Source: an uncultured Aliarcobacter sp.
GTDB taxonomy: Bacteria; Campylobacterota; Campylobacteria; Campylobacterales; Arcobacteraceae
DNA length: 64,000 nt
Direction: 5' to 3'
NCBI GenBank assembly: GCA_963677435.1
Contig: OY781945.1
Location: 252,879 to 316,878, forward strand
Shown here: positions 4,519-44,491 of the stretch, piece after piece
Numbering within the stretch: the first letter of the stretch is position 1
How the letters are laid out: each line of letters opens with the position of its first letter
Notes under the pieces: model-generated
What the model was told of the DNA's origin: nothing
Database searches by the model: none
What the model saw: only the letters and a program-made list of their open reading frames with translations
Translations under genes and position numbers: made by a program

Positions 4519-4534
4519 TGCAAATAGTGTTCCG
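4519..4534 (-). promoter_or_regulatory. sigma54 -24/-12 promoter of the nifV operon
   Basis: Minus strand CGGAACACTATTTGCA, GG-N10-GC, ~35 nt before the nifV ATG. Confidence 0.85.
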
Positions 4535-6550: not shown

Positions 6551-7999
6551 TTACCCTAACTCATGTTCAGTTTTTGAATCTTGCGAATAAAAATATTTTT
6601 GAACCGCTGCAAATACTGATTTTTCAATTGGTTGAAGGGCATAAGAATCGTCACAAATCAAGTTAATTGATTTTAATTCATCCATTGGGCATCCACCGAT
6701 TTTTTCAGTTAATAATAAATCCACATCTTTTAAAGTATTTTTAATATCTTCAATTGGATAAGAACCATCACAATCTTCAGGTCCTTTACAATATGGATTT
6801 TCAACTTTTCTGTGCATTACAAATTTGATTGCTTTATCTCCAGCTTCGTAGATTAAGAACTCTTTAGCATTACCAAAGTGTAAGTTAATAGTTCCCTCAC
6901 CAGCAGTTGTAACAGCTACAAGTTTAGTTTCACCTGTTGAACTCAATTGCTCTTTAGATGCTTGTGCAATTTTTACTTTTTCATTTGCAACTTCAAGAGC
7001 TGCTCTCCAGTTTTCAATAACTTGGTGTTTTTGTGCTCGTGCTGCAATATCATATTTTTTAGTTAAAGCATCCCAGTCCATTTTTACAAAAGTATCTTTT
7101 GTAAATTCATCCCCTCTATCTTCACCAATTAGTCCAACAGCATCAGCACGACACTGTCTACAGTGAGACATAAGTTTCATGTCCATTCCACAAGCTTCTT
7201 GAGCTGCCATTACTTCTTGGTCTGTTGCGCTTTCTTGCCCATTTAATCCATAATATGTACCAAATTCAGGTTTAGATAATAGAGGCATAATGTTATGTAA
7301 AAATACACCTAACTCTTTTAATTTTTTAGCAACATTTGGTAACTCTTTGTCATTAACACCTGGAATTAAAACAGAGTTTGCTTTAACTAAAATTCCTCTT
7401 TCTGTTAACATCTTGATTCCCTCAAGTTGTCTTTGTAAAAGAATTTTTGCTGCTTCTTTTCCAAATACTTTTTTATGATTCCATAAAATCCATGGATATA
7501 TTTTTGAACCAACTTCACCAGTTTCATCAACAGAGTTGATTGTAACTGTTACATGGTCAACATTATATTTTTGGATTTGGTCAATATAATCTGGTAACAT
7601 AAGACCATTTGTAGATAAACACATTTTTAAATCTGGTGCTTTTTCATATAGCATTTTAAATGTTTTAAAAGTTTTTTCAGGGTTTGCTAATGCGTCACCA
7701 GGACCTGCGATTCCTACAACAGAAAGTTGTTGAATTTCTCCACCAACAAATAAAATCTTCTTAACAGCTTCTTCTGGTGATAATTTACCACTAGTTACAC
7801 CTGGTCTACTCTCATTTGAACAATCATATTTTCTATTACAGTAGTTACATTGAATATTACAAGCAGGTGCAACGGCAACATGTATTCTAGCGTAGTGCTG
7901 ATGAGCACCTTCACTATAACATGGGTGATTATTAATCTTTGCCATTACCTCTTCTTGGATTGATTCTTGAGAACTACTTGAAGTACACGAACAACTCAT
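6551..7999 (-). CDS. nifB: FeMo-cofactor biosynthesis radical-SAM protein NifB with C-terminal NifX-like domain
   Basis: HPC, CNIQCNYC (CxxxCxxC), ESRPG, AGPGDALAN, CRQCRADA motifs. True start is ATG 7999 (AGGAG RBS); the track start 8110 lies upstream of the promoter. Confidence 0.97.
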   Translation of the reverse strand: MSCSCTSSSSQESIQEEVMAKINNHPCYSEGAHQHYARIHVAVAPACNIQCNYCNRKYDCSNESRPGVTSGKLSPEEAVKKILFVGGEIQQLSVVGIAGPGDALANPEKTFKTFKMLYEKAPDLKMCLSTNGLMLPDYIDQIQKYNVDHVTVTINSVDETGEVGSKIYPWILWNHKKVFGKEAAKILLQRQLEGIKMLTERGILVKANSVLIPGVNDKELPNVAKKLKELGVFLHNIMPLLSKPEFGTYYGLNGQESATDQEVMAAQEACGMDMKLMSHCRQCRADAVGLIGEDRGDEFTKDTFVKMDWDALTKKYDIAARAQKHQVIENWRAALEVANEKVKIAQASKEQLSSTGETKLVAVTTAGEGTINLHFGNAKEFLIYEAGDKAIKFVMHRKVENPYCKGPEDCDGSYPIEDIKNTLKDVDLLLTEKIGGCPMDELKSINLICDDSYALQPIEKSVFAAVQKYFYSQDSKTEHELG

Positions 8000-8031
8000 A
8001 GATAACTCCTTATTTAAATTTAGAAATATAA

Positions 8032-8047
8032 TGCACATATTGTTCCA
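8032..8047 (-). promoter_or_regulatory. sigma54 promoter of nifB
   Basis: Minus strand TGGAACAATATGTGCA, GG-N10-GC. Confidence 0.8.
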
Positions 8048-8057
8048 CACGAATTTT

Positions 8058-8073
8058 AGGAATAGTAAATGCA
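8058..8073 (+). promoter_or_regulatory. sigma54 promoter of the 61-aa ORF (divergent from nifB)
   Basis: AGGAATAGTAAATGCA, GG-N10-GC, 25 nt before ATG 8099. Confidence 0.7.
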
Positions 8074-8098
8074 AGTTTTTAGTAAAAAAGGATTCAAG

Positions 8099-8284
8099 AT
8101 GAGAATACAAGAAGAGATTAAAAAAGAGCTACTAAAAGAAGTGTATGGAAACATCGATAATATCTATGATTTTGTGAGTTTGAGATTTAGTCTTGACAAG
8201 CCATGTGATGAGGCAGTTATAAAAAAGTTGAATGAATTAAAAGATGTGATTTATAAAGTTTCAAGTTTGAGTGATTTAAATTAA
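8099..8284 (+). CDS. Small 61-aa hypothetical protein under a sigma54 promoter
   Basis: AAGGA RBS then ATG 8099 (MRIQEEIKKELLKEVYGNIDNIYDF...); track start 8069 overlaps the promoter. Confidence 0.7.
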   Translation: MRIQEEIKKELLKEVYGNIDNIYDFVSLRFSLDKPCDEAVIKKLNELKDVIYKVSSLSDLN

Positions 8285-8357
8285 GATAAATAAGCGATGA
8301 GTACATGTTTTAGTTAAACCCCTGTAAAGTTTTATACTCATCGGTTATTCATCTTAT

Positions 8358-9596
8358 TTAATTCATATCTAATTCTATCATTTTCCCGTTTACAATTTCC
8401 GCAAATTCTCTACCAAATTCGAAACAATCTTCTAATTCTTTTTTTGTAGGTATTAATTTTATCTTCATAGGTTCAATCGGTGGAACTCTAAAATGTAAAG
8501 ATTTCATTCTATCAAGAATCATATTAACAGCTTCTCCACTCCAACCATAAGAGCCAAAGGCCATTCCTGTTTTTCCTCTTTTTTCCAAGTACATCATACA
8601 AGAGAGCAAATCCCAAACTGGTTTTGGAGCATCTGCATTTATTGTTGGTGTTCCTATTAATATTCCATCGCTTTCTTCTAGAATATCAATCATGTTTTGT
8701 TCTTCAATTGAAGCTAAATCATATAAACTAGCTCTTATTGTTTTTATACTTTCTGCACCATCAAAAATAGCATCTGCCATATCTCTTGTATTTTTATAAC
8801 TTGTTAGATAAAAAATAGAGATAATTTTGTTGTTCTCTTTAATATTTTCAGGTCTAGCTAAACTCCATTTTCTATAAAGTTCAATATATTTATATGGTTT
8901 TTCCCTAATAATTGGACCATGTAAAGTAGCTATCATCTTTATATCTAGTTTATCATATAACTTTAGCGCACTTAAAACATAAGATTTAAAAGGTCTCATT
9001 ATATGGTCATAGTAATACTTAAATGAGTAAGAAAAATCTCCAACTAAATCATCAAAAAGTCTTTTATCATAATAGTGACTTCCAAAAACATCTCCACTAA
9101 ATAAAAGAGAATCTTCAACAACATAAGAGCTCATTGTCTCTGGCCAATGTAAATATGGAGTTGTTAAAAATCTAATTGTTTTATCACCCAAAGTTAAACT
9201 TTTATTTGTCCAAACTGTTTCAAAATCAATGTTTTCATTGTTTGTAATTGCTTTTAACATTGGTGTTGCTTGGGGTGAGATTAAAACTTTTGCATTTGGA
9301 ACTCTTTTGATTAACTCAGGAATTGCTCCTGCATGATCTGGTTCTAAATGGTGACAAAGTACATACTTTATTTCATCATAAGAACAAAGTTGTTCTATTT
9401 TTGAAAAAAATTCTTTTTCAAAACCCAACTTTACAGTATCAACAATAATAACACCTTCCGTTGTTTTTATTAAGTAGGCATTATATGAAGAACCATTTGC
9501 TGTTTTCATGATAATATCAAAAGTTCTAATATCAGGGTCAAAAGCACCTATAAAAAATATATTATTTGCTATTTCTATTGGTTTTTTATGATTCAT
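8358..9596 (-). CDS. fprA: A-type flavoprotein (flavodiiron protein, FprA family; O2/NO reductase)
   Basis: GSSYNAYLI, HHLEPDHAG, HWPETM, FSGDVFG, HGP di-iron ligands; C-terminal flavodoxin domain with FGSYGWSGEA. Confidence 0.92.
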   Translation of the reverse strand: MNHKKPIEIANNIFFIGAFDPDIRTFDIIMKTANGSSYNAYLIKTTEGVIIVDTVKLGFEKEFFSKIEQLCSYDEIKYVLCHHLEPDHAGAIPELIKRVPNAKVLISPQATPMLKAITNNENIDFETVWTNKSLTLGDKTIRFLTTPYLHWPETMSSYVVEDSLLFSGDVFGSHYYDKRLFDDLVGDFSYSFKYYYDHIMRPFKSYVLSALKLYDKLDIKMIATLHGPIIREKPYKYIELYRKWSLARPENIKENNKIISIFYLTSYKNTRDMADAIFDGAESIKTIRASLYDLASIEEQNMIDILEESDGILIGTPTINADAPKPVWDLLSCMMYLEKRGKTGMAFGSYGWSGEAVNMILDRMKSLHFRVPPIEPMKIKLIPTKKELEDCFEFGREFAEIVNGKMIELDMN

Positions 9597-9951
9597 TTTC
9601 TAATAACCTTCTCATCCATATTGGAGGATTAGATCTCATTTTTATAAGTAAATTAAGAATATCTTCAATCTTTTCATTTTCTTTAGCTGATTGCATAGGG
9701 AAAATTTTACAAGCTTGAACCATTCTTGAAGCCTTTGGGCCAATTTGTTGTACATATAAAATGTCACTATCTTCCAAACATTCTATTTTGTAAGTTAACT
9801 TCTCAATTTCATCTGAAATTTCAATTGAAGAATCAATACTTTTTACAAAATTGTAAGAATCTTCTATGATTTCGTAGACATAAAACTCTTTGCACCAACC
9901 AAAATGTTGGTTAACATGAATATTATCCGTTGATGCAAATGCGATTTTCAT
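9586..9951 (-). CDS. NifX/NifB/NifY-family FeMo-co-binding protein
   Basis: MKIAFAS.D...VNQHFG.CKEF.VYEI; IGPKA motif. Confidence 0.85.
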   Translation of the reverse strand: MKIAFASTDNIHVNQHFGWCKEFYVYEIIEDSYNFVKSIDSSIEISDEIEKLTYKIECLEDSDILYVQQIGPKASRMVQACKIFPMQSAKENEKIEDILNLLIKMRSNPPIWMRRLLENES

Positions 9952-10916
9952 AATACATAAATCCTTACTCTTTTATCTATTACTTGCTCAATTGTACTTT
10001 TAATCATTTCATAAGTTCCAGTTGAAGCAATAGAACAACCAACACAAGCCCCTTGATATGCAAGTCTTAACTCAATTTCTGGCTCATTTAAATAATCAAT
10101 TAAAATTAGGTTTCCACCATCTTTTTTCAAAATTGGTCTAATAAATCTCTCAAGAGCATCATTTATAATTTCAAGTTGATCTTCTAACTTTTTTGTTCTA
10201 AAGTTTTGATTTAATTCCCCATCTTCTAAAGGTTTATCAACACCTGTTAACTGCACGGTTGCCATTACATGACCAGCCTTTGCAGCTTTTAACATACAGT
10301 CGAAACCTTCTTTTATTCCACTTAAATTTGTTCTATCTTTTAGTTGAATTAATGCAAGTCTAAATGCAGCTTGAATATGATCTTTTGCAACTGAGCGTCT
10401 GAAATAATCAACAGCTTTTTGAATATCTTCTTCAACACCAATTTTTGTTTGGTACATTAATGCTAAATTAAAATTAGCAGAATCATTATCATAAGTACTT
10501 GCTTGTTCAAACCACTCTTTTGCTTTTGTATAATCTTTTTCAACACCTTCACCTTTTAAATACATCAAACCTAAGTTTGTCATTGCTTGGTCATTTTTTA
10601 ATTTGGCTTCTTCAACCCAAATATCATGTGCTGTTTTAAAATCTTTGTTTTTATATGCATCAAGTGCCGCTCTATGTTCCATAAATCTTGTTCCTTCATT
10701 TGGGTTTGGAATTGGATTATTCAATTCTAATTGTTTTTGTAAATGCTTTTTCAAATACTCTTTTGCTAATAAAACAGCTTCATCATAATCTTCACTAGAA
10801 GCTTTTATATCAAAATCAATATATTCAACTAAATATGCATCACCAATCTCATTTTCTCCACTATAAACTTCAAGGGGATAATTTAATGATAAATAATAAT
10901 CCAAATCTTTTTTCAT
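9948..10916 (-). CDS. Fusion: HicB-like N-terminal domain + Sel1 repeats + NifU-C/NfuA domain
   Basis: N-term KDLDYYLSLNYPLEV...IPNP; Sel1 units AMTNLGLMYLKGEGVEKDYTKAKEWFEQA and ANFNLALMY..KIGVEEDIQKAVDYFRRS; C-term IRPILKKDGGN...GACVGC (CxxC). Confidence 0.8.
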   Translation of the reverse strand: MKKDLDYYLSLNYPLEVYSGENEIGDAYLVEYIDFDIKASSEDYDEAVLLAKEYLKKHLQKQLELNNPIPNPNEGTRFMEHRAALDAYKNKDFKTAHDIWVEEAKLKNDQAMTNLGLMYLKGEGVEKDYTKAKEWFEQASTYDNDSANFNLALMYQTKIGVEEDIQKAVDYFRRSVAKDHIQAAFRLALIQLKDRTNLSGIKEGFDCMLKAAKAGHVMATVQLTGVDKPLEDGELNQNFRTKKLEDQLEIINDALERFIRPILKKDGGNLILIDYLNEPEIELRLAYQGACVGCSIASTGTYEMIKSTIEQVIDKRVRIYVL

Positions 10917-10934
10917 CTATTAAAACCTACTTTT

Positions 10935-11315
10935 TTATTTTGCTTTGCAAGTACAAGCACTATTTCCTGAGTCTAAAAGTGTTGAACTATTCTCTTTTGT
11001 AACTTCAATACAATCACCAGTTGATAACTGCATATAAATCTCATCTATACTTAAATGAGTTTGTAAGCAGCTATAAACTTTCAAACCTTTTTCAATTAAA
11101 TATTCATAAACCTTATCACCCATATAATAAAAAATTGTGCTGTCGATATTTTGAGAAGAGACAAATTTTGCAGTATTAATCCCATCTCCACAGGCAGGAT
11201 TTTCTACAACTTTAAAACTTCCCGTTTCTTCATCTAAAAAGGCAAAAAAGGCGCTGTTTCCATAAAGTTTAGAAATCTGCGTTGAGTCTTCATTATCCAA
11301 TGGTATTGCTATCAT
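10935..11315 (-). CDS. NifB/NifX-family Mo-Fe cluster-binding protein
   Basis: IAIPL...ISKLYGNSAFFAFLD...VENP..G.G...MG.K pattern of the family; first gene of a sigma54 operon. Confidence 0.75.
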   Translation of the reverse strand: MIAIPLDNEDSTQISKLYGNSAFFAFLDEETGSFKVVENPACGDGINTAKFVSSQNIDSTIFYYMGDKVYEYLIEKGLKVYSCLQTHLSIDEIYMQLSTGDCIEVTKENSSTLLDSGNSACTCKAK

Positions 11316-11345
11316 TTTAACTCCTTTTATTTATATTTTTATGTA

Positions 11346-11361
11346 TGCAAATAGTATTCCT
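11346..11361 (-). promoter_or_regulatory. sigma54 promoter of the nifX-like/Sel1-NfuA/nifX-like/fprA operon
   Basis: Minus strand AGGAATACTATTTGCA, GG-N10-GC. Confidence 0.82.
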
Positions 11362-11369
11362 TAGTAGTG

Positions 11370-11385
11370 AGGAATACAAGTTGCA
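11370..11385 (+). promoter_or_regulatory. sigma54 promoter of nifE
   Basis: AGGAATACAAGTTGCA, GG-N10-GC. Confidence 0.82.
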
Positions 11386-11424
11386 TGACATTAATTAATA
11401 AAATCCAATTATAAAGAGTCTATT

Positions 11425-12771
11425 ATGGTAAATAAAAAATTAATTCGAGAACTCTTGAGCGAAAGCGATTGCTCACATAATAAAACAAAAAAATCTTCAT
11501 GTGATAAACCAAAACCAGGAGCAACAAGTGGTGGTTGTGCATTTGAGGGAGCACAAATTTCACTTTTTCCATTTGCAGATGTTATTCATTTAGTTCATTC
11601 ACCTGCAACTTGTATAGGAGCATCTTGGGAAACTAGACAAACTCTTACTTCCCATAAAGGTGAAAATAATACAGTTATGGGTTACACAACTGATGTTAAT
11701 ACAAATGACATCATTTTTGGTGGAGATAAAAAACTTGAAGTTTCAATTGATTATATAGTTGAACATAAGAATCCAAAAGGAATTTTTGTATATGAAACTT
11801 GTGTAACTGCCATGATTGGTGATGACATGGACAATGTTTGTGGGAGAATGGAGAAGAAACACGGTATTCCAATTGTTGTTATTCACTCTCCTGGTTTCGT
11901 TGGTGGTAAAAATCTAGGCTCAAGACTTGGTGGAGAATCAGTTCTGCATCAACTAATAGGAACAAAAGAACCTGAAGTTATACACCCTTTTGGAATAAAT
12001 CTAATTGGTGAATATAATGTTACAGGTGATATGTGGCAATACACACCACTTTTAGAAAAAATTGGAATAAAAGTAATCTCAACACTAGCAGGTGATGGAA
12101 GAATTGAAAATATTCAAATGGCTCACACTGCAAAATTAAATGTAATTGTTTGTGCAAAATCATTAATTAGTTTAACTAGAAAAATGCAAGAGAAATATCA
12201 AATTCCTTATATTTCTATCTCATTTTATGGGAAACGTGACACATCAAATGCAATAAGAAGTATTGTAAACGCCTTTGGTGATGAAGCACTAACAGCTCGA
12301 GCTGAAGCACTAATCGCAGAAGAAGAAGCAAAACTTGAAGAGATATTAATTCCTTATAGAAAAATATTAGAGGGTAAAAAAGCTATTTTAAATACAGGTG
12401 GAAATAAAACTTGGTCAATAGCTTCTGCTTTACAAGATATAGGAGTTGATGTTGTTGCAACTAGCGTTCAAAAAGCTACTTTAGAAGATAAAGAGATTTG
12501 TGCACAATATGTAAAAATCTTAATAACAAATCCAGGAGTTGAACAAGCTCAACTAATAGATGAACATAAAATTGATATTTTACTTGCAGGTGGAAGAAGT
12601 TTATATACAGCTATTAAGAAAAAAGTAGCCTTTGTAGATGTAAACCAAGAGAAAAAAGTATCTTATGGAGCATATTCAGGACTTGTAAATCTTGCAATTG
12701 ATGTTTGTAATGCTGTAAATAATAAAGTATTTAAAGTAGTTGGTGCACCGGAACCTTGGAGTGTTGATTAA
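11425..12771 (+). CDS. nifE: Nitrogenase FeMo-cofactor scaffold subunit NifE
   Basis: GGCAFEGA, HSPATC, YETCVTAMIGDD, GSRLGG, LNVIVCAKS, C-terminal PW. Confidence 0.95.
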   Translation: MVNKKLIRELLSESDCSHNKTKKSSCDKPKPGATSGGCAFEGAQISLFPFADVIHLVHSPATCIGASWETRQTLTSHKGENNTVMGYTTDVNTNDIIFGGDKKLEVSIDYIVEHKNPKGIFVYETCVTAMIGDDMDNVCGRMEKKHGIPIVVIHSPGFVGGKNLGSRLGGESVLHQLIGTKEPEVIHPFGINLIGEYNVTGDMWQYTPLLEKIGIKVISTLAGDGRIENIQMAHTAKLNVIVCAKSLISLTRKMQEKYQIPYISISFYGKRDTSNAIRSIVNAFGDEALTARAEALIAEEEAKLEEILIPYRKILEGKKAILNTGGNKTWSIASALQDIGVDVVATSVQKATLEDKEICAQYVKILITNPGVEQAQLIDEHKIDILLAGGRSLYTAIKKKVAFVDVNQEKKVSYGAYSGLVNLAIDVCNAVNNKVFKVVGAPEPWSVD

Positions 12772-12786: not shown

Positions 12787-13935
12787 TTATGCAGCATTAT
12801 TTAGAATCTCTGATAATACTTCTTTTGTATAAATAGAGTCTAATCCAAAATGTTTTGCATTTTCATAAGCATTATCTACAATTAGAGGAATATCTTCTTT
12901 TTTTATCGAGAATTGTGATAATTTAGTTGGTGTACCAATTTTATTAAACCAATTCTCTAAAGCTTCAATTCCCTCTTGAGCAGAATAAACACCAAAAATC
13001 TCATTTGCAAATCGTTCAAATTGAGTTGGATTCTTTTTGTAATACCATTTCATCCAAGCTGGCATTATTACAGATAAACCTGCACCATGGGGAACATTAA
13101 AAAGTGCAGATAAAGTGTGCTCAATCATATGATTTGGATATGAATATCCTGCAACTCCCAAATATGTAGTTCCATTTAAAGCATTTGTAGCAGCCCAAGC
13201 AAACTCTGCTCTTGCATCATAATTTTCACTATCTTTTAATAAAATCTCCGTTGATTCAATAACAGTTGAAATATTTGCTTCAATATATTTTGAAATAATT
13301 GTAGGATGTACAGTTGCAGTAAAATATCCCTCAATAGAGTGAGCAATAATATCAGCTGCTGAATAAACCAAATAATCTTTTGATACTGATTTTTGTAATT
13401 CTGGATTAATTACAGAAACTTTTGGATAAATAAAAGCTGATGTAATTGAGTATTTTTGTTTTGTTTCTTCATTTGTAACAACTGCAAAAGCATTCATTTC
13501 ACTTCCCGTTGCTGCCATTGTTATAATATCAAATACAGGCAGTGCTTTTGTAATCTCTCTTTTTCCTAAAAAGAAATCCCAAACATCTCCTTCATCTAAA
13601 GCTCCAACAGCAATAGCTTTTGAACTATCAAGAACAGAACCTCCACCAACACTTAAAATTCCATCTACTTTATTCTCTTTTGCTTTTTTGATTCCTTCAT
13701 AAACTGTCGAAAGAGTTGGATTACTGACAATTCCACCTAATTCAACAAACTCAATATCAAACTCTTTTAAACTATTTATTACAGAATCATACAATCCATC
13801 TTTTTTAATTCTATCACTTCCAAAAGTAAGTAATACTTTTTTAACTCCATATGAACTTATATATTTTCCTATATTTTTCTCTTTATCTTTTCCAAATTCT
13901 ATTTGTGTTGGATTTTTATATGTAAATTTTTCCAT
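12787..13935 (-). CDS. Iron-containing alcohol dehydrogenase (YqhD/BdhA-like, NADPH-dependent)
   Basis: NPTQIEFGK, GGGSVLDSSK, TMAATGSE, HSIEGY, HMIEHTLSA, HGAGL metal ligands. Confidence 0.92.
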   Translation of the reverse strand: MEKFTYKNPTQIEFGKDKEKNIGKYISSYGVKKVLLTFGSDRIKKDGLYDSVINSLKEFDIEFVELGGIVSNPTLSTVYEGIKKAKENKVDGILSVGGGSVLDSSKAIAVGALDEGDVWDFFLGKREITKALPVFDIITMAATGSEMNAFAVVTNEETKQKYSITSAFIYPKVSVINPELQKSVSKDYLVYSAADIIAHSIEGYFTATVHPTIISKYIEANISTVIESTEILLKDSENYDARAEFAWAATNALNGTTYLGVAGYSYPNHMIEHTLSALFNVPHGAGLSVIMPAWMKWYYKKNPTQFERFANEIFGVYSAQEGIEALENWFNKIGTPTKLSQFSIKKEDIPLIVDNAYENAKHFGLDSIYTKEVLSEILNNAA

Positions 13936-13951
13936 TTATAATCTCCTAGTT

Positions 13952-14032
13952 TTTCTACAAATTATAAATGAATTTAAAAAAAGCCAATAGAAAAATAATC
14001 CCTTATTCTTGCCTATTTCTACAAATTATAAA
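13952..14032. repeat. 17-bp exact direct repeat TTTCTACAAATTATAAA (13952-13968 and 14016-14032) in the adh promoter region
   Basis: Direct reading; a related 19-mer occurs inverted at 14967-14985 upstream of the AraC gene. Confidence 0.85.
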
Positions 14033-14035
14033 AAA

Positions 14036-14938
14036 TCAGGCAATATCTTTATTTTTTATTGAATTTGTATGAGCAATTGGTGACATTCCAAACATCCTTG
14101 TGTATTCTCTACTAAATTGAGAAGGGCTTTCATAGCCAATTGCAAAAGCCACTTGAGTAGCTTCGATATTTTGAGATATTAACATCTGTTTAGCTTCTTC
14201 AAGTCTAATCTTTTTTTGAAATTGTAAAGGACTCATAGAAGTGATTTTTTTGAAGTTATGATATAAAGATGACTCACTAATTCCTACAGTTTTAGCTAAA
14301 TCCTTCATATTTATATTTTCTGAAAAGTTGTTTTTTATCTCTGTTATTGCTTTTACTATCTGATTGGTTAAAGTTCCTTCTAAAACATGTTGTTTTAAGA
14401 AGTCTCCATTTCTTTCTAATAGTGTATAAATTATCTCTTTCATAATCAATGAAGATAAAAATTTAATATCATTTGTTGGTTTATCCAAAAGTTTAATTAA
14501 TCTTGATAAAGGTTCAAGTAAACTATCATTTAAATCATCAAAACATAAGCCCTTTACTAGACCTTTTTTTTCGCTAATTCCTGTATTATTGATTTCTTTT
14601 AATACTTCATAAATTTGTTCAAGGGAAAATCTTAGCATAACAGCAACATAAGGAACTTCTTTTGAAGCTCTTTGTATTTTAACATTTGCGGGGATATGTG
14701 TACAAGCTAAAAGATATTTTGTTTCTGAATAACTAAACATCTCATTTGCAAAACCAACTGCCTTTTCACCTTGTAACACTATACATAAAGATGGTTCATA
14801 AATAACACTTGTAAATTCAGATAAAGAAGTAGTTGTATAAAACTTAAGTGATGGGATTTGTGTAGAAATAATCCCATCATCTTTATATTTGTCTTTTATA
14901 TAATTTATTAATTCTTTTTGATAATTTGATTGATTCAT
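14036..14938 (-). CDS. AraC-family transcriptional regulator (YqhC-like)
   Basis: YEPSLCIVLQGEK N-terminal domain; SPLQFQKKIRLEEA...GYESPSQFSREY..MFG.SP HTH domain. Confidence 0.93.
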   Translation of the reverse strand: MNQSNYQKELINYIKDKYKDDGIISTQIPSLKFYTTTSLSEFTSVIYEPSLCIVLQGEKAVGFANEMFSYSETKYLLACTHIPANVKIQRASKEVPYVAVMLRFSLEQIYEVLKEINNTGISEKKGLVKGLCFDDLNDSLLEPLSRLIKLLDKPTNDIKFLSSLIMKEIIYTLLERNGDFLKQHVLEGTLTNQIVKAITEIKNNFSENINMKDLAKTVGISESSLYHNFKKITSMSPLQFQKKIRLEEAKQMLISQNIEATQVAFAIGYESPSQFSREYTRMFGMSPIAHTNSIKNKDIA

Positions 14939-15013
14939 ATTAACTCCTAAAATCTAATTATTACAGAATTTGTAGAATTAGGCAATAGATATAAATAAAT
15001 TAATAGAAAATAG

Positions 15014-15442
15014 TTATCCTACTTTTTCTAATAAAGCTTTCATTAAATCAGCACTATTTTGTAAATCATAACCTCTTTCTTTCAACCAATCATTTATTAC
15101 ATCTTTTTTATATGCCAACTCTTTTTCTTTATAAGATGCATATTCTGCTTCTTCGTCCCAATTACCATTTTTATCTAAAAATTGATCTTGATATTCCATA
15201 TTAACTGTAAGTTTAGTTGGTATTGCATATGTCTTATCATCTACTTGCTCAAATCTAACTCCATCTATTTCTCGAGTTCGTACTGGATTGTATGGTTCAT
15301 TATTTACCATTTGCATGGTTCCTTCAAAATCACCATATTCAGAATCTTTTAGATTATCTAAATTAAGATGCTCTTTATTATTGTTAATTGTTGAAAAGAA
15401 ACCAATATTAAATTCACTTACTACTTCGTTAATTGAGGCCAT
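15014..15442 (-). CDS. Hypothetical acidic protein
   Basis: GGGAG RBS; 142-aa ORF; no motif recognised. Confidence 0.7.
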   Translation of the reverse strand: MASINEVVSEFNIGFFSTINNNKEHLNLDNLKDSEYGDFEGTMQMVNNEPYNPVRTREIDGVRFEQVDDKTYAIPTKLTVNMEYQDQFLDKNGNWDEEAEYASYKEKELAYKKDVINDWLKERGYDLQNSADLMKALLEKVG

Positions 15443-15626
15443 AAGAACTCCCTAATTATAATATTATTTAATTATAAATAATAACTTGCTACCCTTAAGA
15501 TAAAATAAATTTATCTATACTTTTCTCACTTTTAACTTATTAATTATTTAGATATAATAATTTATGGATTTATTTATTTATTTGAAGAATAGGAATGTAG
15601 AATTAAATAATTAAAGGATAAATACA

Positions 15627-16010
15627 ATGGAGCAAGAAATAACTTTAAATAGAAACACTATGATTGTTTCAGAAACTGATGAAAAAGGTATCATTGTCTA
15701 TGCAAATGCAGATTTCTGCTCTATTGCAGGATATACAAAAGATGAACTAATTGGACAACCTCACAATATGGTTAGACATCCTGATATGCCAAAAGCTGCA
15801 TTTGAAGATTTATGGAAAACAATTCAATCTGGTAATGTTTGGAAGGGAATAGTTAAAAACAGGACAAAAAATGGTGATTTTTATTGGGTAAATGCAACTG
15901 CATATCCATCAAAAACCCATGATGGTAAAATAAGATATATTTCAGTAAGAGTTAGTCCAACTCAAGATGAAATAAAAAATGCTGAGACTTTATATAAAAC
16001 ATTAAAATAA
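15627..16010 (+). CDS. Stand-alone Aer-type PAS protein (CetB-like)
   Basis: IVSETD.KG.I.YAN.DF..IAGY...[16 protein letters not shown]...[12 protein letters not shown]. Confidence 0.9.
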
Positions 16011-16020
16011 GGAGTTATCC

Positions 16021-17283
16021 ATGTTTTTCCCAAATAAAGGTAATGAAGCTATCTTAAAAGCTTTAGATGATATTGACTCTTTTATAAATAATCACATTAA
16101 TTCAATGCCTCAAATAGAAGGTTCCTGTTCAGGTTTTAATTTAGAAATCAAAAAAAGACTTGAAAAAATTTCTTCATCTTTACAAATAAAAAATGACGAA
16201 GAACTAAAAGTTTATGGTGAAATCATGTTAATTTCAGAGAAATTATCTGATGGAAATATAAACGATAAAATCTATCATACAAAAACTTCAAATGAAAAGC
16301 TGAATTATATTGCTAAAACTTTTAACAATTTAGTTAATCACCTAAAGTTTATGATTCAATCTATTTTAGATATATTGGGAGAGTATTCAAAACATAATTA
16401 CTTAAAAAAAGTAGAAATTCCAAATCTAAAAGGCGAGTTTAAACTGCTTACAGAGGGAGTTAATACTTTAAGAGAAACAATTACTTTAATGTTAAAAGAG
16501 AATAAAGAAAATGGCCTAACACTCGACAGAACTTCAGATATTTTATTAACAAATGTTGATAAATTAAATCAAAGCTCTACTGAAGCTGCAGCAAGTCTTG
16601 AACAATCAGCTGCTGCTATGGAGCAAATGACAAGTAACATTAAAAGTAATACAGAAAATATCTCTAAAATGGCTAAACTCTCAGATGAACTAATCACAGC
16701 CACAAATACTGGCGAAGATTTAGCAAATCAAACAACAGTAGCAATGGAAGAGATAAATACTCAAGTAAATTCAATTAGTGATGCGATTAGTATTATTGAT
16801 CAAATTGCATTTCAAACAAATATTCTTTCTTTAAATGCAGCAGTTGAAGCAGCAACTGCTGGTGAAGCTGGTCGTGGTTTTGCTGTTGTTGCAGCAGAAG
16901 TGAGAAATCTTGCTTCAAGAAGTGCAGAAGCAGCCAAAGAGATAAAAAATATAGTTGAAACAGCAACTGTAAAAGCAAATAATGGAAAAAATATCGCAAA
17001 TAAAATGATAAGTGGTTATAGAGAATTAAGTGAAAATATTTCCCATACTACAAATATTATTCAAGATATTCAAGTTGCTTCAAAAGAACAATTAGATGGA
17101 ATAGTTCAAATTAATGATGCAATAAACCTTTTGGATAAACAAACACAAGTAAATGCAGGTATTGCTTCTGAGTCTCACGATGTAGCACTAGTTACAGATA
17201 AAATCGCCAAATTAATTGTTGAAAATGCAAATAAAAAGCAGTTTGAAGGAAAAGATAAAATACAAATAAAAGAAGAGTTTTAA
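16021..17283 (+). CDS. Soluble methyl-accepting chemotaxis protein
   Basis: [40 protein letters not shown] signalling hairpin; no TM segment evident. Confidence 0.93.
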
Positions 17284-17286
17284 CTT

Positions 17287-17302
17287 AGGAATAGTTTTTG
17301 CA
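17287..17302 (+). promoter_or_regulatory. sigma54 promoter of the nifN operon
   Basis: AGGAATAGTTTTTGCA, GG-N10-GC, 3 nt after the MCP stop. Confidence 0.82.
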
Positions 17303-17336
17303 TAATCTTCCATAATTATCCATTCAAGGAAATATT

Positions 17337-18632
17337 ATGGAAGCAATATCAGCAAAACCTTTACAATTAAATCCAATAAAATTATCTCAACCAATGGGAG
17401 CAATGTTATGCTTCTTAGGTATAAAAAACTGCATGCCTTTAATGCACGGAGCTCAAGGGTGTGCATCATTCTCAAAAGTATTTTTCACAAGACATTTTAA
17501 TGACCCAATCGCAGTTCAAACAACAGCAGTAAATGATATTACAGCTGTTATTGATGGTGGAGATTATGCCATTAGTGAAAGTATAAAAAACATCACTGCA
17601 AAAGTAAAACCAGATTTAGTAGGACTTTTTACAACTGGTCTTACTGAAACAAAAGGTGACGACATTAAGGGTGCGAGTAAACTTGTTGAAGATATTCAAC
17701 AAATGGTTTATGTAAATACACCTGATTTTGAAGGCTCAATTGAGAGTGGATTTTCTAAATCTATTGAAGCAATAATCCAACAATTAGTTGCCTCATCAAC
17801 AGAAATCGATACAAACAAAGCTTTAATCATTCCAAATGTAAATTTAAAACCAATAGAAGTGGAAAAAATCAAAGATACAATCTCTTTATTTGGTTATGAA
17901 GTTTTTTCACTTCCAGATTTAAGTGAATCACTTGATGGTCACTTAGGATTAAAACAAGGTGCACTAACAAGTGGGGGAATATGCGTTGAAGATATAAAAA
18001 AACTTGCAACTTCTTCACTTGTTTTTACAATTGGTAAAAGTGTTGAAAAATGTGGTGAAAAAATTCTTGAAAAGAATCCAAATATAAAACTATTTCACTT
18101 TGACTCTTTAGGTGGATTAGAACAAAGTGATAAATTCTTCAAAATCTTATGCAAGGTAAAAAATATTTCTCAACCACATCCCTCAATTGTAAGATGGAGG
18201 AAAAGACACCAAGATGCACTTTTAGATACTCACTTTGTTATTGGAAGCTCAAATGTTGTAATTGCTCTTGAGCCTGACCAAGCAATAAGTGTAGCAAATA
18301 CAATCATCGAAGCAGGTGCCCATATTAAAGCTATAGTAACCACTCATAGAAATGATTTATTAGATGAAATTCCATGCGACAACCTTTTAATTGGGGATTT
18401 TGAAGATGTGGAATCATTTTTGCATGAGAGTGATTTAGTTATATCAAATTTTCATGCAGAAAGACTTGCTATTAAACACAAAAAAGCGTTGTTAGTTCGT
18501 GGTTATCCTGATTTTGAAAGCTTAGGAAACCAACTTAAAAATGACATTTTATATGAGGGAAGCTCTTATTTGCTTTTCGAATTAGCAAATTTGATAAATC
18601 ATCATAAATTAGGAGTTGAAAATGAGCATTAA
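17337..18632 (+). CDS. nifN: Nitrogenase FeMo-cofactor scaffold subunit NifN
   Basis: NPIKLSQPMGA, HGAQGCASF, TGLTETKGDDI, TPDFEGS, GYPDFESLG. Confidence 0.94.
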   Translation: MEAISAKPLQLNPIKLSQPMGAMLCFLGIKNCMPLMHGAQGCASFSKVFFTRHFNDPIAVQTTAVNDITAVIDGGDYAISESIKNITAKVKPDLVGLFTTGLTETKGDDIKGASKLVEDIQQMVYVNTPDFEGSIESGFSKSIEAIIQQLVASSTEIDTNKALIIPNVNLKPIEVEKIKDTISLFGYEVFSLPDLSESLDGHLGLKQGALTSGGICVEDIKKLATSSLVFTIGKSVEKCGEKILEKNPNIKLFHFDSLGGLEQSDKFFKILCKVKNISQPHPSIVRWRKRHQDALLDTHFVIGSSNVVIALEPDQAISVANTIIEAGAHIKAIVTTHRNDLLDEIPCDNLLIGDFEDVESFLHESDLVISNFHAERLAIKHKKALLVRGYPDFESLGNQLKNDILYEGSSYLLFELANLINHHKLGVENEH

Positions 18633-21215: not shown

Positions 21216-21231
21216 TGGAACACTAATTGCA
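21216..21231 (+). promoter_or_regulatory. sigma54 promoter of the nifX operon
   Basis: TGGAACACTAATTGCA, GG-N10-GC. Confidence 0.88.
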
Positions 21232-24168: not shown

Positions 24169-25416
24169 ATGGCACAAACACTTTCAATATCAACTGCTCA
24201 AAAGCAGAATTTAAATCTATCATTAAAGTTGTGGCTTCCAATGCTACAAACATCTATCCAAGATTTAGAATCGTACTTGACAAATTTGTCATACGAAAAT
24301 CCTTTTTTGGAAGTAACAAAATCAAAAGACTTTTATAGTAACTTTACCTCAAATGGCACAAGTGGAGAGTTTATTGAATCCCTAGCTTTTTATTCAAAAT
24401 CTTTGAATGATAAAATTAGTGAACAAATTGAAAATGAAGCACTATTTCCAACACCAAACTCACAAAAAGTTGCACTTGAAATCTTGTGTGATATCGATGA
24501 AAATGGATATTTTGATGGAGATATAGAAAAAATAGCAAATACTTGTAATGTATATAAAGAGTATGTAGAATCAATTAGACAAAGATTTGCAAGATTAGAA
24601 CCAAGTGGAATTGGAGCTAGAAATCTTCAAGAGTCTTTCTTATTTCAATTAGATTCATTTGATAGAAAAATTGATGATGAATTATATAATTTCACAAAAA
24701 AAATCATAAAAGATATTGCACATGTTGATAAATATGCAGGACATCATAGATTTAATGATGCAAAAGATATTATTAAATATTTTAATAATCCACCCGCAAT
24801 TGATTATATCAATGATAATGTTCAAGTTGTTCCTGATTTTTTCATAGAGATCAATGAAGACATTGATATAAAAATAAATAATGCTTATTATCCAGATATA
24901 AAAGTAAAAAATCCATTTATTACGAAAAATGAAAATATAAAAGAGAAACTAAAAGAAGCAAAAGATTTAGTAAATTTATTGAATTTACGAAAATCAACCC
25001 TTTATAAAATTGTTTTAATTATTGTTGAAAAACAGATATCTTTTTTTGTTGGAGGAGAGTTAAAACCTTTTTCTATGCAAGAAATAGCAGCTGAATTAGG
25101 ATTTGCAGAATCAACAATAAGTAGGGCAGTAGCAAACAAATATGTAGAATGTAACTTGGGAATTTTCCCACTTAAATTCTTTTTTTCAAATGCTGTTGAT
25201 AAGGATTTATCTTCATCACAAATTAAAAGTTATATAAAAAGTCTTGTTGATTATGAAGATAAAGAGACTCCTTTAACTGATGAATCAATATTAGAATTTA
25301 TTGAAACTAAATTTGGTTTAAAAATGGTTAGAAGAACAATTACTAAATATAGAAAGATATTAGATATACCATCTTCTAAAGAGAGAAAAAAATTATATAA
25401 GGTTGAAAATTTATAA
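24169..25416 (+). CDS. rpoN: RNA polymerase sigma-54 factor RpoN
   Basis: LKLWLPMLQ region I, ENPFLE, EPSGIGARNLQE, ESTISRAVANKY HTH, RpoN box VRRTITKYR. Confidence 0.95.
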   Translation: MAQTLSISTAQKQNLNLSLKLWLPMLQTSIQDLESYLTNLSYENPFLEVTKSKDFYSNFTSNGTSGEFIESLAFYSKSLNDKISEQIENEALFPTPNSQKVALEILCDIDENGYFDGDIEKIANTCNVYKEYVESIRQRFARLEPSGIGARNLQESFLFQLDSFDRKIDDELYNFTKKIIKDIAHVDKYAGHHRFNDAKDIIKYFNNPPAIDYINDNVQVVPDFFIEINEDIDIKINNAYYPDIKVKNPFITKNENIKEKLKEAKDLVNLLNLRKSTLYKIVLIIVEKQISFFVGGELKPFSMQEIAAELGFAESTISRAVANKYVECNLGIFPLKFFFSNAVDKDLSSSQIKSYIKSLVDYEDKETPLTDESILEFIETKFGLKMVRRTITKYRKILDIPSSKERKKLYKVENL

Positions 25417-30896: not shown

Positions 30897-31889
<993 letters not shown>

Positions 31890-39801: not shown

Positions 39802-39817
39802 AGGAACACTTCTTGCA
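39802..39817 (+). promoter_or_regulatory. sigma54 promoter of the akr-flavoprotein-nifT operon
   Basis: AGGAACACTTCTTGCA, GG-N10-GC. Confidence 0.85.
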
Positions 39818-42961: not shown

Positions 42962-44491
42962 ATGTTTGATAAATCTGCCTGTATGAGCTGCCTAACAATA
43001 AGAGAATTAACAACACTTTATGAAATTTCTTCAGTTATTTCAAATCATTATGATTTGCAAACTTCCCTTGAGAAATCAATGAAAATTTTAAAAAACTCGT
43101 TAAGTCTTGAAAATTGTGTAGTTCATATTTTAGATGATGATGTTTTAAATGTTTTTGCGTCTATTGAATTATCAAAATTCCAAAAAACACTTGCTACTTA
43201 TAAAGTAGGAGAGGGAGTTACTGGAATGGTTGCTGAATCAAAAGAACCAGTTGTTGTAGAAAATATTCATAATAACTCTATTTTTCTAAATAAATCAGGA
43301 AAAAGAGATTTTAATGGGAAATCTTATGCAGCAGTTCCTTTAATGATAGACAATGAATCCATAGGTGTTTTAGGTGCAGTGATTACTAAAAATGCTGAAA
43401 TACAACTAGATGATACAGTAAGAATTTTAACAATTGTAAGTTCAATCTTTGCACAAACAATTCATTCTTATCAACTATATCAAAAAGAAAAAGAGAGATT
43501 ACAAGAACTAAAACTTTATTACAAAATGGAATGGGATTCAAAAGTTCATAATTTTGGGGATATTATTGGAGATAGTCCAAAAATGGAACAAGTTTTCAAA
43601 GTTATTCAAAGAATTGCCCAATCTGATGTAACTGTATTAGTTAGAGGAGAAACAGGAACTGGAAAAGAACTAGTTGCTGCTGCCATTCATAAAAGAAGTA
43701 ACAGAAAAGATGAACCATTTATCAAACTAAATTGTGCTGCTATTACTGATACTTTACTTGAAAGCGAACTTTTTGGACATGAAAAAGGCGCATTTACAGA
43801 TGCAAGAGAAACTAGAAAAGGAAGATTTGAACTAGCAGATGGAGGAACTCTTTTTTTAGATGAAATAGGAGATATTTCACCCTCAGCTCAAGTAAAACTT
43901 CTAAGAGTTCTACAAGAAAGAGAATTTGAAAGAGTTGGTGGAAGTAAAACTATAAAAGTAAATGTTAGACTCGTAGCTGCAACAAATAGAAATCTTGAAC
44001 AAATGGTTAAAGATGGGAAGTTTAGAGAAGATTTATATTATAGATTAAATGTTATTCCTATTGATTTACCGCCACTTAGAGAAAGAGGTGAGGATATTAA
44101 ACAACTTGTAAACTTCTTTTTAGAAAGAGCTATGAGAAACCACAAAAAAAGAGTAACAATCACAGATGAAGCTATGGATGCGCTCTGTAGTTACCCGTGG
44201 CCGGGCAATGTAAGAGAATTAGAAAATACAATTGAGCGTATTGTTTTAATGGGGAATGAAGAAGGAATAAACAAATATGATATGTTACTTTTACTTCCTG
44301 CACTTAATGATCAAAAACTAAAAAGTGATTATAAACCAATTTCTAAAAAAAGTTTGACTTTAGAAGAATTGGAAAAAGAAGCAATTATTGAGGCACTTGA
44401 AAATAACGACTATAATCAATCAAATGCGGCAATAGAGTTAGGAATAACTCTTAGACAAATGGGGTATAAAATAAAAAAATATGAAATCTAA
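42962..44491 (+). CDS. nifA: sigma54-dependent activator NifA (GAF-AAA+-HTH)
   Basis: GAF with GEGVTG; GETGTGKE; ESELFGHEKGAFTDA; FLDEIG; WPGNVRELEN; C-terminal Q..AA..LG.T.RQ..YKI HTH. Confidence 0.92.
   Translation: MFDKSACMSCLTIRELTTLYEISSVISNHYDLQTSLEKSMKILKNSLSLENCVVHILDDDVLNVFASIELSKFQKTLATYKVGEGVTGMVAESKEPVVVENIHNNSIFLNKSGKRDFNGKSYAAVPLMIDNESIGVLGAVITKNAEIQLDDTVRILTIVSSIFAQTIHSYQLYQKEKERLQELKLYYKMEWDSKVHNFGDIIGDSPKMEQVFKVIQRIAQSDVTVLVRGETGTGKELVAAAIHKRSNRKDEPFIKLNCAAITDTLLESELFGHEKGAFTDARETRKGRFELADGGTLFLDEIGDISPSAQVKLLRVLQEREFERVGGSKTIKVNVRLVAATNRNLEQMVKDGKFREDLYYRLNVIPIDLPPLRERGEDIKQLVNFFLERAMRNHKKRVTITDEAMDALCSYPWPGNVRELENTIERIVLMGNEEGINKYDMLLLLPALNDQKLKSDYKPISKKSLTLEELEKEAIIEALENNDYNQSNAAIELGITLRQMGYKIKKYEI

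What the first reader, a model, noticed from the sequence alone, without database searches (positions are those of the whole stretch)
11346..11385. Back-to-back divergent sigma54 promoters (nifE versus the nifX-like/fprA operon), 10 bp between -24 GG dinucleotides
Seen: TGCAAATAGTATTCCT-TAGTAGTG-AGGAATACAAGTTGCA is an imperfect inverted repeat made of two complete -24/-12 promoters. The whole intergenic region is only 109 bp. Established: sigma54 holoenzyme covers roughly -34 to -5, and NifA normally acts from TGT-N10-ACA enhancers ~100 bp upstream. Inference: both promoters probably cannot be occupied at once (a toggle or competition between FeMo-co scaffold and O2-detox/Fe-S repair genes), and there is no intergenic room for an enhancer.
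Basis: partly seen in the sequence, partly recalled or inferred. Interest (0 to 1): 0.62.

Follow-up and report, generated by a model that had tools for sequence, protein, structure and literature searches.

The report
Tight back-to-back sigma-54 nif promoters
Two real-looking sigma-54 promoters sit back to back, 10 bp apart, and drive nifE one way and a nifX-like/flavodiiron operon the other; this very tight layout, with no room for an enhancer, recurs in related nitrogen-fixing Campylobacterales, but whether the two promoters compete is untested.

Summary
Positions 11346-11385 hold two outward-facing GG-N10-GC sites: AGGAATACTATTTGCA on the minus strand and AGGAATACAAGTTGCA on the plus strand. 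Ten bp separate the GG dinucleotides, inside a 109-bp intergenic region.

They match the lineage's sigma-54 consensus (GGAAY-N6-TGCA). That pattern occurs 16 times in the window against 0.93 expected. Eleven copies are intergenic and face a gene; nine of these lie 31-40 nt before a start codon, one about 26 nt and one 92 nt.

The genome has one rpoN and one true activator, a NifA equivalog, and both lie in this nif island. In the family, rpoN occurs in the nif genomes.

Comparative data settle the identity. Where nifE has the divergent neighbour, both motifs are present; where it does not, only the nifE-facing one is. A second pair (nifB versus a 61-aa ORF, gap 12) lies at 8032-8073. Such pairs occur in 38 nif genomes of 151 family genomes, with zero hits for the reversed-pattern control.

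The spacer sequence is not conserved, but its length clusters at about 10-13, 20-24 and 32-35 bp.

No TGT-N10-ACA site or any shared enhancer was found. The 'toggle' idea is neither supported nor excluded.

The scan has noted back-to-back sigma-54 pairs elsewhere, but the followed-up ones that state a spacing lie far wider apart, several with an enhancer between.

The parts
11346..11361 (-). Sigma-54 promoter of the nifX-like operon: AGGAATACTATTTGCA, with GG at 11360-11359 and GC at 11348-11347. The predicted TSS is about 11335, which gives a 20-nt leader with AAGGAG before the ATG at 11315.
   Evidence: The reverse motif is present in relatives only when the divergent gene is present.
11370..11385 (+). 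Sigma-54 promoter of nifE: AGGAATACAAGTTGCA, with GG at 11371-72 and GC at 11383-84. The predicted TSS is about 11396, which gives a 29-nt leader with AAAGAG before the ATG at 11425.
   Evidence: A forward motif lies 47-54 nt before the nifE ATG in most relatives, and further upstream (59-164 nt) in a minority with longer leaders. It is present in 29 of 30 family loci, whatever gene lies upstream.
11361..11370 (.). The 10-bp spacer between the two -24 GG dinucleotides. Its outer bases A11361 and A11370 are the -26 bases of the two 16-mers. It has no conserved sequence. It contains both promoters' '-29 regions' (11361-64 and 11367-70), where an activator's L1 loops touch DNA in the model system.
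   Evidence: The spacer sequences differ in every lineage. For the L1 contact at -30 to -27 see PMC3467059.
11425..12771 (+). nifE, 448 aa. It is monocistronic here: a convergent alcohol dehydrogenase gene follows, and nifN lies 4.5 kb away.
   Evidence: Pfam Oxidored_nitro 1e-82. TIGR01283 nifE scores 494.7 bits, just under its cut-off of 505.1.
8358..11315 (-). The divergent operon: a NifX-family protein (10935-11315), a Sel1-repeat/NifU-C protein (9948-10916), a NifX-like protein (9586-9951) and an FprA-type flavodiiron protein (8358-9596).
8032..8073 (.). The second back-to-back sigma-54 pair. TGGAACAATATGTGCA (minus strand, 8047-8032) faces nifB, whose ATG I place at 7999. AGGAATAGTAAATGCA (plus strand, 8058-8073) faces a 61-aa ORF at 8099-8284. 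The gap between the GGs is 12 bp.
   Evidence: The pair is conserved in relatives with gaps of 12-13 or 20-24 bp.
24169..25416 (+). rpoN, the only sigma-54 gene in the genome.
   Evidence: In the family it is found in 54 of 151 genomes, essentially the nif genomes.
42962..44491 (+). NifA (GAF-AAA+-HTH_8), the only genuine sigma-54 activator in the genome.
   Evidence: TIGR01817 scores 541.3 bits against a cut-off of 528.85.
30920..30935 (+). The nifH sigma-54 promoter TGGAACGCAAAGTGCA, the reference member of the regulon. The other single promoters are at 4519-4534 (-), 17287-17302 (+), 21216-21231 (+), 39802-39817 (+), 47930-47945 (+) and 50057-50072 (+).

Best explanation
These are two separate, genuine sigma-54 promoters placed back to back. 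PnifE has a predicted start near 11396 and the promoter of the nifX-like/NifU-C/NifX/FprA operon has one near 11335, so the two starts are 61 bp apart. Both are read by the island's own sigma-54 and switched on by the island's NifA, the only activator of this type in the genome. The two operons are therefore co-induced during nitrogen fixation, not alternated. The inverted repeat is a by-product of two copies of the lineage's promoter consensus facing outwards; it is not a binding site in its own right. The layout is old and conserved. It is found at two places in this nif island and in nif islands across the order Campylobacterales. Only the length of the spacer is constrained, not its sequence. 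No enhancer lies between or beside the promoters, so NifA must act from a distant site or without a promoter-proximal site. This last step is inferred, not shown. In the model system the activator touches DNA just upstream of GG, and here that patch abuts the partner's -24 element. The two promoters may therefore fire one at a time on a given DNA copy. I read any such interference as a tolerated side effect of compaction, not as a regulatory switch.
For: 1. Register and fit. Both sites are GG-N10-GC with TTGCA at -12. They match the consensus of the other island promoters, including nifH.

2. Enrichment. The pattern occurs 16 times in the window against 0.93 expected. By a crude gene call, 9 of the genome's 16 intergenic, gene-facing sites are in this 64-kb window, and all but one of them lie 31-40 nt before a start codon. 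The nifB/61-aa-ORF pair, confirmed by reading the sequence, brings the window's total to 11.

3. Machinery. There is one rpoN and one true activator, both in the island, and the activator passes the NifA equivalog cut-off. In the family, rpoN is found in 54 of 151 genomes, nifH in 54 and nifE in 53, in essentially the same genomes.

4. Each motif follows its gene. In all 21 family loci where a divergent nifX-like gene was detected within 300 bp of nifE, both motifs are present. In eight of the nine other loci only the nifE-facing motif is present. The ninth (L017) also carries a pair, although the nifX-like query found no gene there.

5. Specificity of pairs. The back-to-back pattern is found in 40 of 151 family genomes, of which 38 are nif genomes, with up to two pairs per genome. 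The reversed-pattern control gives 0 of 151 and 0 of 401.

6. Not a palindromic operator. The two arms of a pair are no more alike at variable positions than arms from different genomes (3.69 versus 3.58 of 6 positions, p=0.28). The gap ranges from 2 to 35 bp.

7. No enhancer found.

8. Function. Both operons encode cofactor-assembly proteins.
Against: The start sites and the dependence on sigma-54 and NifA are therefore predictions. Both sites have A at -26 and T at -21, where nifH has T and C, so they are weaker matches than the nifH promoter. NifA keeps an HTH_8 domain, which argues that it binds DNA somewhere, yet no site was found; a degenerate or lineage-specific enhancer in coding DNA cannot be excluded. 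The clustering of spacer lengths near 11-12, 22-24 and 32-35 bp hints at coupling between the two complexes that 'independent promoters' does not explain.
Confidence: 0.6

Rival explanations
1. Mutual exclusion used as a control device. Only one sigma-54 holoenzyme, or one activator ring, can sit on the 40-bp module at a time. The two operons would then compete, and their output ratio would be set by relative promoter affinity.
For: The modelled closed-complex DNA reaches about -33 (PMC5505868). With starts 61 bp apart, the two complexes would overlap by about 6-8 bp. The activator's L1 loops contact -30 to -27, and that DNA matters for isomerisation (PMC3467059). Here those patches (11361-64 and 11367-70) fill the spacer and abut the partner's GG. 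Very short gaps (2-8 bp) exist in other lineages.
Against: The same gene pairs have gaps of 20-24 bp in several genera, where the footprints would not overlap, so exclusion cannot be an essential function. Both promoters use the same sigma factor and the only activator, and both serve the same pathway. The two sites are near-identical in quality, so nothing biases a switch. No direct test was possible.
Confidence: 0.15
2. A phase-locked twin promoter. The two closed complexes are held in a fixed rotational relation so that one NifA assembly, or one DNA loop from a remote site, can serve both. The promoters would then be positively coupled, possibly helped by negative supercoiling generated by divergent transcription.
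For: Spacer length is conserved but its sequence is not. In 59 nif pairs of the family the gaps are 7-13 bp (42 pairs) or 20-24 bp (17 pairs), with none at 14-19. When other families are added, the values above 14 are 20-24 and 32-35 only. Shifts between about 12 and about 23 occurred in both pairs and in at least four genera; one is a clean 11-bp tandem duplication (G009 versus G087). [quoted passage not shown]
Against: The short class spans 2-14 bp across the order, more than a full helical turn, so phase is not strictly kept. The genomes are related and the length windows were chosen after seeing the data, so the statistics overstate the case. No remote NifA site was identified.
Confidence: 0.15
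3. The inverted repeat is an operator for a dimeric transcription factor, or a cruciform, and not a pair of sigma-54 promoters.
For: The site has 14 of 16 arm symmetry.
Against: A single arm occurs alone upstream of nifE when there is no divergent gene, and at seven other genes in the island. The gap varies from 2 to 35 bp. The arms do not co-evolve. The motif is confined to genomes that carry rpoN; only two chance-looking hits, both of which look to lie inside coding sequence, occur in genomes without it.
Confidence: 0.03

Closest known systems
Canonical sigma-54 (-24/-12) promoters activated by NifA in Proteobacteria, such as Klebsiella or Sinorhizobium nifH
   Same: They share GG-N10-GC spacing and TTGCA at -12. 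The genome has a dedicated rpoN and an activator that passes the NifA equivalog cut-off. The target genes are nif genes.
   Different: The -24 half-site is GGAAY, not GGCAC. That is the lineage's own consensus and, from my own knowledge, resembles the flagellar sigma-54 promoters of Campylobacter and Helicobacter. No TGT-N10-ACA enhancer lies near any island promoter.
Divergent sigma-54 operon pairs that share an intergenic enhancer: E. coli hyc/hyp and zraP/zraSR (listed as bidirectional spacers with RpoN binding in PMC8743547), and pairs noted earlier by this scan
   Same: Two outward-facing sigma-54 promoters in one intergenic region control functionally linked operons through one activator.
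   Different: In those cases the promoters are roughly 80-420 bp apart and several have the activator sites between them (own knowledge for E. coli). Here the -24 elements are 10 bp apart, the spacer is not conserved, and there is no room for an enhancer.
The dmp system of Pseudomonas putida CF600: back-to-back sigma-54 Po and sigma-70 Pr promoters coupled through supercoiling (PMC5175336)
   Same: The geometry is back-to-back and non-overlapping. Firing of one promoter can stimulate the other through DNA topology.
   Different: In dmp the partner promoter is sigma-70-dependent, the Po-to-Pr region shown in that paper is 266 bp, and the enhancer and IHF site lie between the promoters. Here both promoters are sigma-54-dependent and their starts are 61 bp apart.
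Enhancer-independent sigma-54 activation by FlgR in Helicobacter and Campylobacter (own knowledge; not checked in a paper here)
   Same: The phylum is the same, and the sigma-54 promoters have no detectable upstream activator site.
   Different: FlgR in H. pylori lacks a DNA-binding domain. This NifA keeps an HTH_8 domain, so enhancer-free action is only an inference.

Membership tests
Sigma-54-dependent (-24/-12) promoter | GG and GC dinucleotides in the fixed register GG-N10-GC | tested here: met
   Both sites meet this: GG 11371-72 with GC 11383-84, and GG 11360-59 with GC 11348-47.
Sigma-54-dependent (-24/-12) promoter | Match to the extended consensus TGGCAC-N5-TTGCW | tested here: inconclusive
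   The -12 half (TTGCA) is perfect. The -24 half is AGGAAT. That fits the lineage consensus GGAAY seen at 11 island promoters and at nifH in 15 distinct relatives' sequences. It departs from the textbook GGCAC and scored below 9 bits on my heuristic textbook matrix.
Sigma-54-dependent (-24/-12) promoter | The genome encodes sigma-54 and at least one AAA+ enhancer-binding activator | tested here: met
   There is one rpoN and one activator with a GAF-AAA-HTH architecture, which is a NifA equivalog.
Sigma-54-dependent (-24/-12) promoter | The site is intergenic, faces a gene, lies at a plausible distance from the start codon, and is conserved at the orthologous position | tested here: met
   The -11 base lies 31 and 40 nt before the two ATGs, each with a ribosome-binding site. 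The sites are conserved across at least 7 genera of the family and in other families of the order.
Sigma-54-dependent (-24/-12) promoter | The transcription start lies about 12 nt downstream of GC, and transcription depends on rpoN and the activator | not testable with these tools
No genetics can be done here.
Classical NifA-dependent promoter with an upstream activator sequence | TGT-N10-ACA about 80-150 bp upstream of the start | tested here: not met
   The window has 21 such sites against 19.1 expected, so there is no enrichment, and none lies upstream of either promoter. No dyad is shared upstream of 14 promoters. The flanking coding DNA shows no conserved patch at synonymous sites.
Divergent sigma-54 pair with a shared intergenic enhancer (hyc/hyp type) | Activator sites located between the two promoters | tested here: not met
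   Only 10 bp lie between the GGs, and their sequence differs in every lineage.
Palindromic operator of a dimeric regulator | Fixed half-site spacing, half-sites that always occur together, and symmetry kept beyond any other constraint | tested here: not met
   The gap ranges from 2 to 35 bp. Single arms occur alone. The arms are no more similar to each other than chance allows.

The most novel reading that the evidence does not exclude
The tight pair works as one unit and not as two promoters. The two sigma-54 closed complexes would be held about one helical turn apart (or two or three turns in lineages with gaps of about 23 or 33 bp). A single NifA ring, acting without a promoter-proximal enhancer, would contact both complexes or fire them in strict alternation. 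That would fix the output ratio of the two cofactor-assembly operons. It would be a new architecture for enhancer-dependent transcription, found twice per nif island across Campylobacterales.
Probability: 0.15. Interest if true: 0.75.

Novelty: new variant of a known kind. Interest (0 to 1): 0.5.

Why it matters
Sigma-54 promoters are the model for enhancer-dependent transcription in bacteria. In that model the activator binds about 100 bp upstream and loops over to the polymerase. Here two such promoters share a 40-bp module with no space for an enhancer. The arrangement is conserved in dozens of species and duplicated within the island. The system has a single sigma-54 and a single activator that travel with the nif genes.

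This gives a clean natural test case for two open questions. First, can two sigma-54 holoenzymes, and their roughly 120-Å activator rings, occupy adjacent -24 elements? Second, how does a NifA that keeps its DNA-binding domain activate promoters that have no recognisable site?

It also matters for anyone transplanting or refactoring compact nif clusters. If both promoters simply fire independently, the result is a tidy annotation of an undescribed nif regulon in Arcobacteraceae and no more.

Tried and rejected
- **Canonical NifA enhancer.** TGT-N10-ACA is not enriched and is absent near the pair. The hit at 17181, upstream of the nifN promoter, lies in the 3' end of a chemoreceptor gene. The paralogous chemoreceptor gene has a similar TGT-N10-ACA site at 26960, also near its 3' end, with no promoter behind it, so a coding origin is likely.
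- **nifH upstream elements.** The nifH upstream region has conserved palindromes: GGATA-N5-TATCC at about -127 and a CCCTATTTTAGGG-like box at about -76. I tested whether they recur at the pair or at other promoters. They do not, so they are nifH-specific and do not explain activation here.
- **De novo motif search.** I looked for a shared dyad or 7-mer from -230 to -30 of 14 promoters. Nothing survives multiple testing.
- **Hidden enhancer in coding DNA.** There is no window of suppressed synonymous variation in the first 110 codons of nifE (93 sequences) or the nifX-like gene (32 sequences).
- **Palindrome or operator reading.** Rejected (and the single-arm cases).
- **Sigma-70 promoters.** Matches in the region are not above chance (3 against 1.6 +/- 1.3).
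- **Literature.** No paper in the held library describes nif or sigma-54 regulation in Campylobacterota.
- **Textbook matrix.** My first scoring matrix, built from memory of the textbook consensus, scored the two sites below threshold. I replaced it with the lineage's own pattern.
- **Steric docking.** Docking two closed complexes could not be done, because no structure coordinates are available in the sandbox.

Full report
**What is there.** Positions 11346-11385 read TGCAAATAGTATTCCTTAGTAGTGAGGAATACAAGTTGCA.
- The plus strand reads AGGAATACAAGTTGCA at 11370-85. The minus strand reads AGGAATACTATTTGCA from 11361 down to 11346.
- Each site has GG and GC in the sigma-54 register; the second G and the C are 12 nt apart.
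- The two -24 elements are innermost, with 10 bp (11361-11370) between the GG dinucleotides.
- The intergenic region, 11316-11424, is 109 bp.
- The arms match at 14 of 16 positions. Both mismatches fall at -18 and -16, in the part of a sigma-54 promoter that is free to vary.
- Taking +1 as 12 nt after the C of GC, the predicted starts are about 11396 (+) and about 11335 (-), 61 bp apart.
- The leaders would be 29 nt and 20 nt, each with a ribosome-binding site (AAAGAG and AAGGAG).

**The setting.** The window is a nif island in a 3.12-Mb genome of 27.5% G+C. Its closest relatives are named Aliarcobacter or Arcobacter, family Arcobacteraceae.
- nifE (11425-12771) stands alone. A convergent alcohol dehydrogenase gene follows it.
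- The divergent operon encodes a NifX-family protein, a Sel1/NifU-C fusion, a second NifX-like protein and an FprA-type flavodiiron protein.
- The window also holds nifB, nifV, nifN, nifX-...-nifW-nifZ, nifHDK and the mod genes.
- The genome has a single rpoN (window 24169-25416).
- It has a single genuine sigma-54 activator (window 42962-44491). The architecture is GAF-AAA+-HTH_8, and it passes NCBI's NifA equivalog cut-off (541.3 against 528.85 bits).
- Across 151 genomes of the family, rpoN is found in 54, nifH in 54 and nifE in 53, in essentially the same genomes.
- In this family sigma-54 is therefore an accessory factor that travels with nif.

**Are the sites more than chance?** The island's promoters share GGAAY-N6-TGCA.
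- The pattern occurs 16 times in the window against 0.93 +/- 1.0 in shuffles, and 133 times in the genome.
- By a crude gene call only 16 of the 133 are intergenic and face a gene within 150 nt. Nine of those 16 lie in this 64-kb window. All but one of the nine lie 31-40 nt from a start codon.
- The nifB/61-aa-ORF pair was missed by that crude gene call. Reading the sequence confirmed it and brings the window's total to eleven.
- The eleven face nifV, nifB, the 61-aa ORF, the nifX-like operon, nifE, nifN, nifX, nifH, an aldo-keto reductase operon, a SIR2/ClpX-like pair and a ferredoxin.
- Three further good sites outside the window face a NifS-like gene, a MoxR-like ATPase gene and a hemerythrin-like gene. 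I assigned those three by eye.

**Comparative test of identity.** I fetched the nifE locus from 30 family genomes, and later from 80 species across the order.
- In all 21 family loci where a divergent nifX-like gene was detected within 300 bp of nifE, both motifs are present.
- In eight of the nine other family loci only the nifE-facing motif is present, 48-52 nt before the ATG. In two of these (L006, L012) it directly follows a hairpin that looks like a terminator. The ninth locus (L017) also carries a pair, although the nifX-like query found no gene there.
- Each motif therefore follows its own gene. Two promoters would behave this way; a palindromic operator would not.
- The two arms of a pair are no more alike at the six variable positions than arms from different genomes (3.69 against 3.58, p=0.28).
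- The spacer between the GGs has a different sequence in every lineage.

**The layout recurs.** The genome contains exactly two back-to-back pairs and no face-to-face or tandem ones.
- The second pair is at 8032-8073, between nifB and the 61-aa ORF, with a 12-bp gap.
- A pattern search over 151 family genomes found back-to-back pairs in 40 of them. Of these, 38 are nif genomes, with up to two pairs each, 3-10 kb apart.
- The two non-nif hits look to lie inside coding sequence and are probably chance. The reversed-pattern control scored zero.
- Over 401 genomes of the order, pairs also appear in six other families, again with a zero control.

**Spacer length.** In 59 nif-associated pairs of the family the gaps are distributed as follows:

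| Gap (bp) | 7 | 8 | 10 | 11 | 12 | 13 | 14-19 | 20 | 22 | 23 | 24 |
|---|---|---|---|---|---|---|---|---|---|---|---|
| Pairs | 2 | 1 | 5 | 3 | 29 | 2 | 0 | 1 | 5 | 7 | 4 |

- Other families add gaps of 2, 5, 6, 7, 8, 10, 11, 13, 14, 21, 32 and 35 bp.
- Every lineage-level value above 14 falls in 20-24 or 32-35.
- Shifts between about 12 and about 23 occurred in both pairs and in at least four genera. One is a clean 11-bp tandem duplication (G009 versus G087).
- A Rayleigh analysis on 38 lineage-collapsed values gives R of about 0.5 over periods of 10.5-13 bp.
- I treat this as suggestive only. The genomes are related, the windows were chosen after seeing the data, and the short class spans more than a full turn.

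**Enhancer.** I found none.
- TGT-N10-ACA is not enriched in the window (21 sites against 19.1 expected), and none lies upstream of either promoter.
- No dyad or 7-mer is shared upstream of 14 promoters.
- Neither flanking gene shows suppressed synonymous variation in its first 110 codons.
- The nifH upstream region does carry conserved palindromes, but they do not recur elsewhere.
- Several island promoters begin shortly after the preceding gene's stop codon. The lack of room for an enhancer is therefore general in this regulon and not special to the pair.

**Can both be occupied?** This could not be tested.
- The published closed complex models DNA from about -33 to -5/-9, and the activator 'sandwiches' the promoter DNA from above (PMC5505868).
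- The activator's L1 loops cross-link to -30..-27, just upstream of GG, and that DNA matters for isomerisation (PMC3467059).
- Here those two patches (11361-64 and 11367-70) fill the spacer and abut the partner's -24 element. Interference at the activation step is therefore plausible.
- Against a functional toggle: the same gene pairs have gaps of 20-24 bp in several genera. Both promoters use one sigma factor and one activator. Both operons serve FeMo-cofactor assembly.
- Back-to-back promoters can also help each other through supercoiling (PMC5175336).

**Verdict.**
- These are two real, co-regulated sigma-54 promoters in an unusually tight, conserved and duplicated layout with no enhancer nearby.
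The identification is supported. The 'no room for an enhancer' point is supported by what I could test. The toggle remains an open and less likely reading.
- Divergent sigma-54 pairs are well known, and this scan has noted many. The followed-up ones that give a spacing are 84-422 bp apart, and several have an enhancer between the promoters.
- This is therefore a new variant of a known kind.
- I found no paper in the held library on nif regulation in Campylobacterota.

Noticed in passing
window 12787-17336: nifE and nifN are separated by about 4.5 kb that carries an iron alcohol dehydrogenase gene, an AraC regulator gene, an unknown ORF, a PAS protein gene and a chemoreceptor gene. nifN (17337-18632) has its own sigma-54 promoter at 17288-17302, directly after the chemoreceptor gene's stop codon.
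   Followed up: partly
window 30780-30880: The nifH upstream region has elements conserved across the family: a TTTACAAAATTTGTA-like box, a GGATA-N5-TATCC palindrome (30812-30826, about -127) and a CCCTATTTTAGGG-like palindrome (30864-30876, about -76). They do not recur at the other sigma-54 promoters. They are candidate binding sites for NifA or another regulator, specific to nifH.
   Followed up: partly
window 24169-25416 and 42962-44491; family genomes: The genome's only rpoN and only sigma-54 activator both lie in the nif island. Across 151 family genomes rpoN co-occurs with nifH and nifE (54, 54 and 53 genomes). The sigma factor therefore behaves as part of a mobile or accessory nif module.
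   Followed up: yes
window 11402-11427 and relatives' nifE leaders: The nifE leader keeps a conserved AAAGAGTCTA block around the ribosome-binding site in many genera, including genomes where nifE has no divergent partner. This suggests a nifE-specific translation signal.
   Followed up: no
L013-L019 (one genus of relatives), nifE leader: In this genus the nifE leader is 40-110 nt longer. In four of these loci (L014, L015, L018, L019) the scan found a GGGTAAGA-N3-TTATCC palindrome about 20 nt downstream of the -12 element; L013 shows a similar one by eye. It may form an RNA hairpin or be a protein site. It is absent from the window's genus.
   Followed up: partly
genome C1:363070-363084 (-), 1511038-1511052 (+), 2544133-2544147 (-): Three more good sigma-54-type sites lie outside the window, 29-32 nt before start codons. 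They face a MoxR-like AAA ATPase gene, a hemerythrin-like gene and a NifS-like cysteine desulfurase gene. I assigned these by eye, without a family search.
   Followed up: partly
window 47931-50048: A SIR2-like gene and a ClpX-like AAA+ gene sit behind a sigma-54 promoter inside the nif island. This is an unexpected pairing for a nif regulon.
   Followed up: no
window 8285-8357: A hairpin (CGATGAGTA...TACTCATCG) lies between the convergent 61-aa ORF and the fprA-like gene. It looks like a two-way terminator that closes both sigma-54 transcription units.
   Followed up: no
window 6551-8110: The longest nifB reading frame starts at a TTG at 8110 and would swallow the promoter pair. The ATG at 7999, preceded by GGAG and 22 nt downstream of the predicted start site, is the more likely start and gives a 482-aa protein.
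   Followed up: partly
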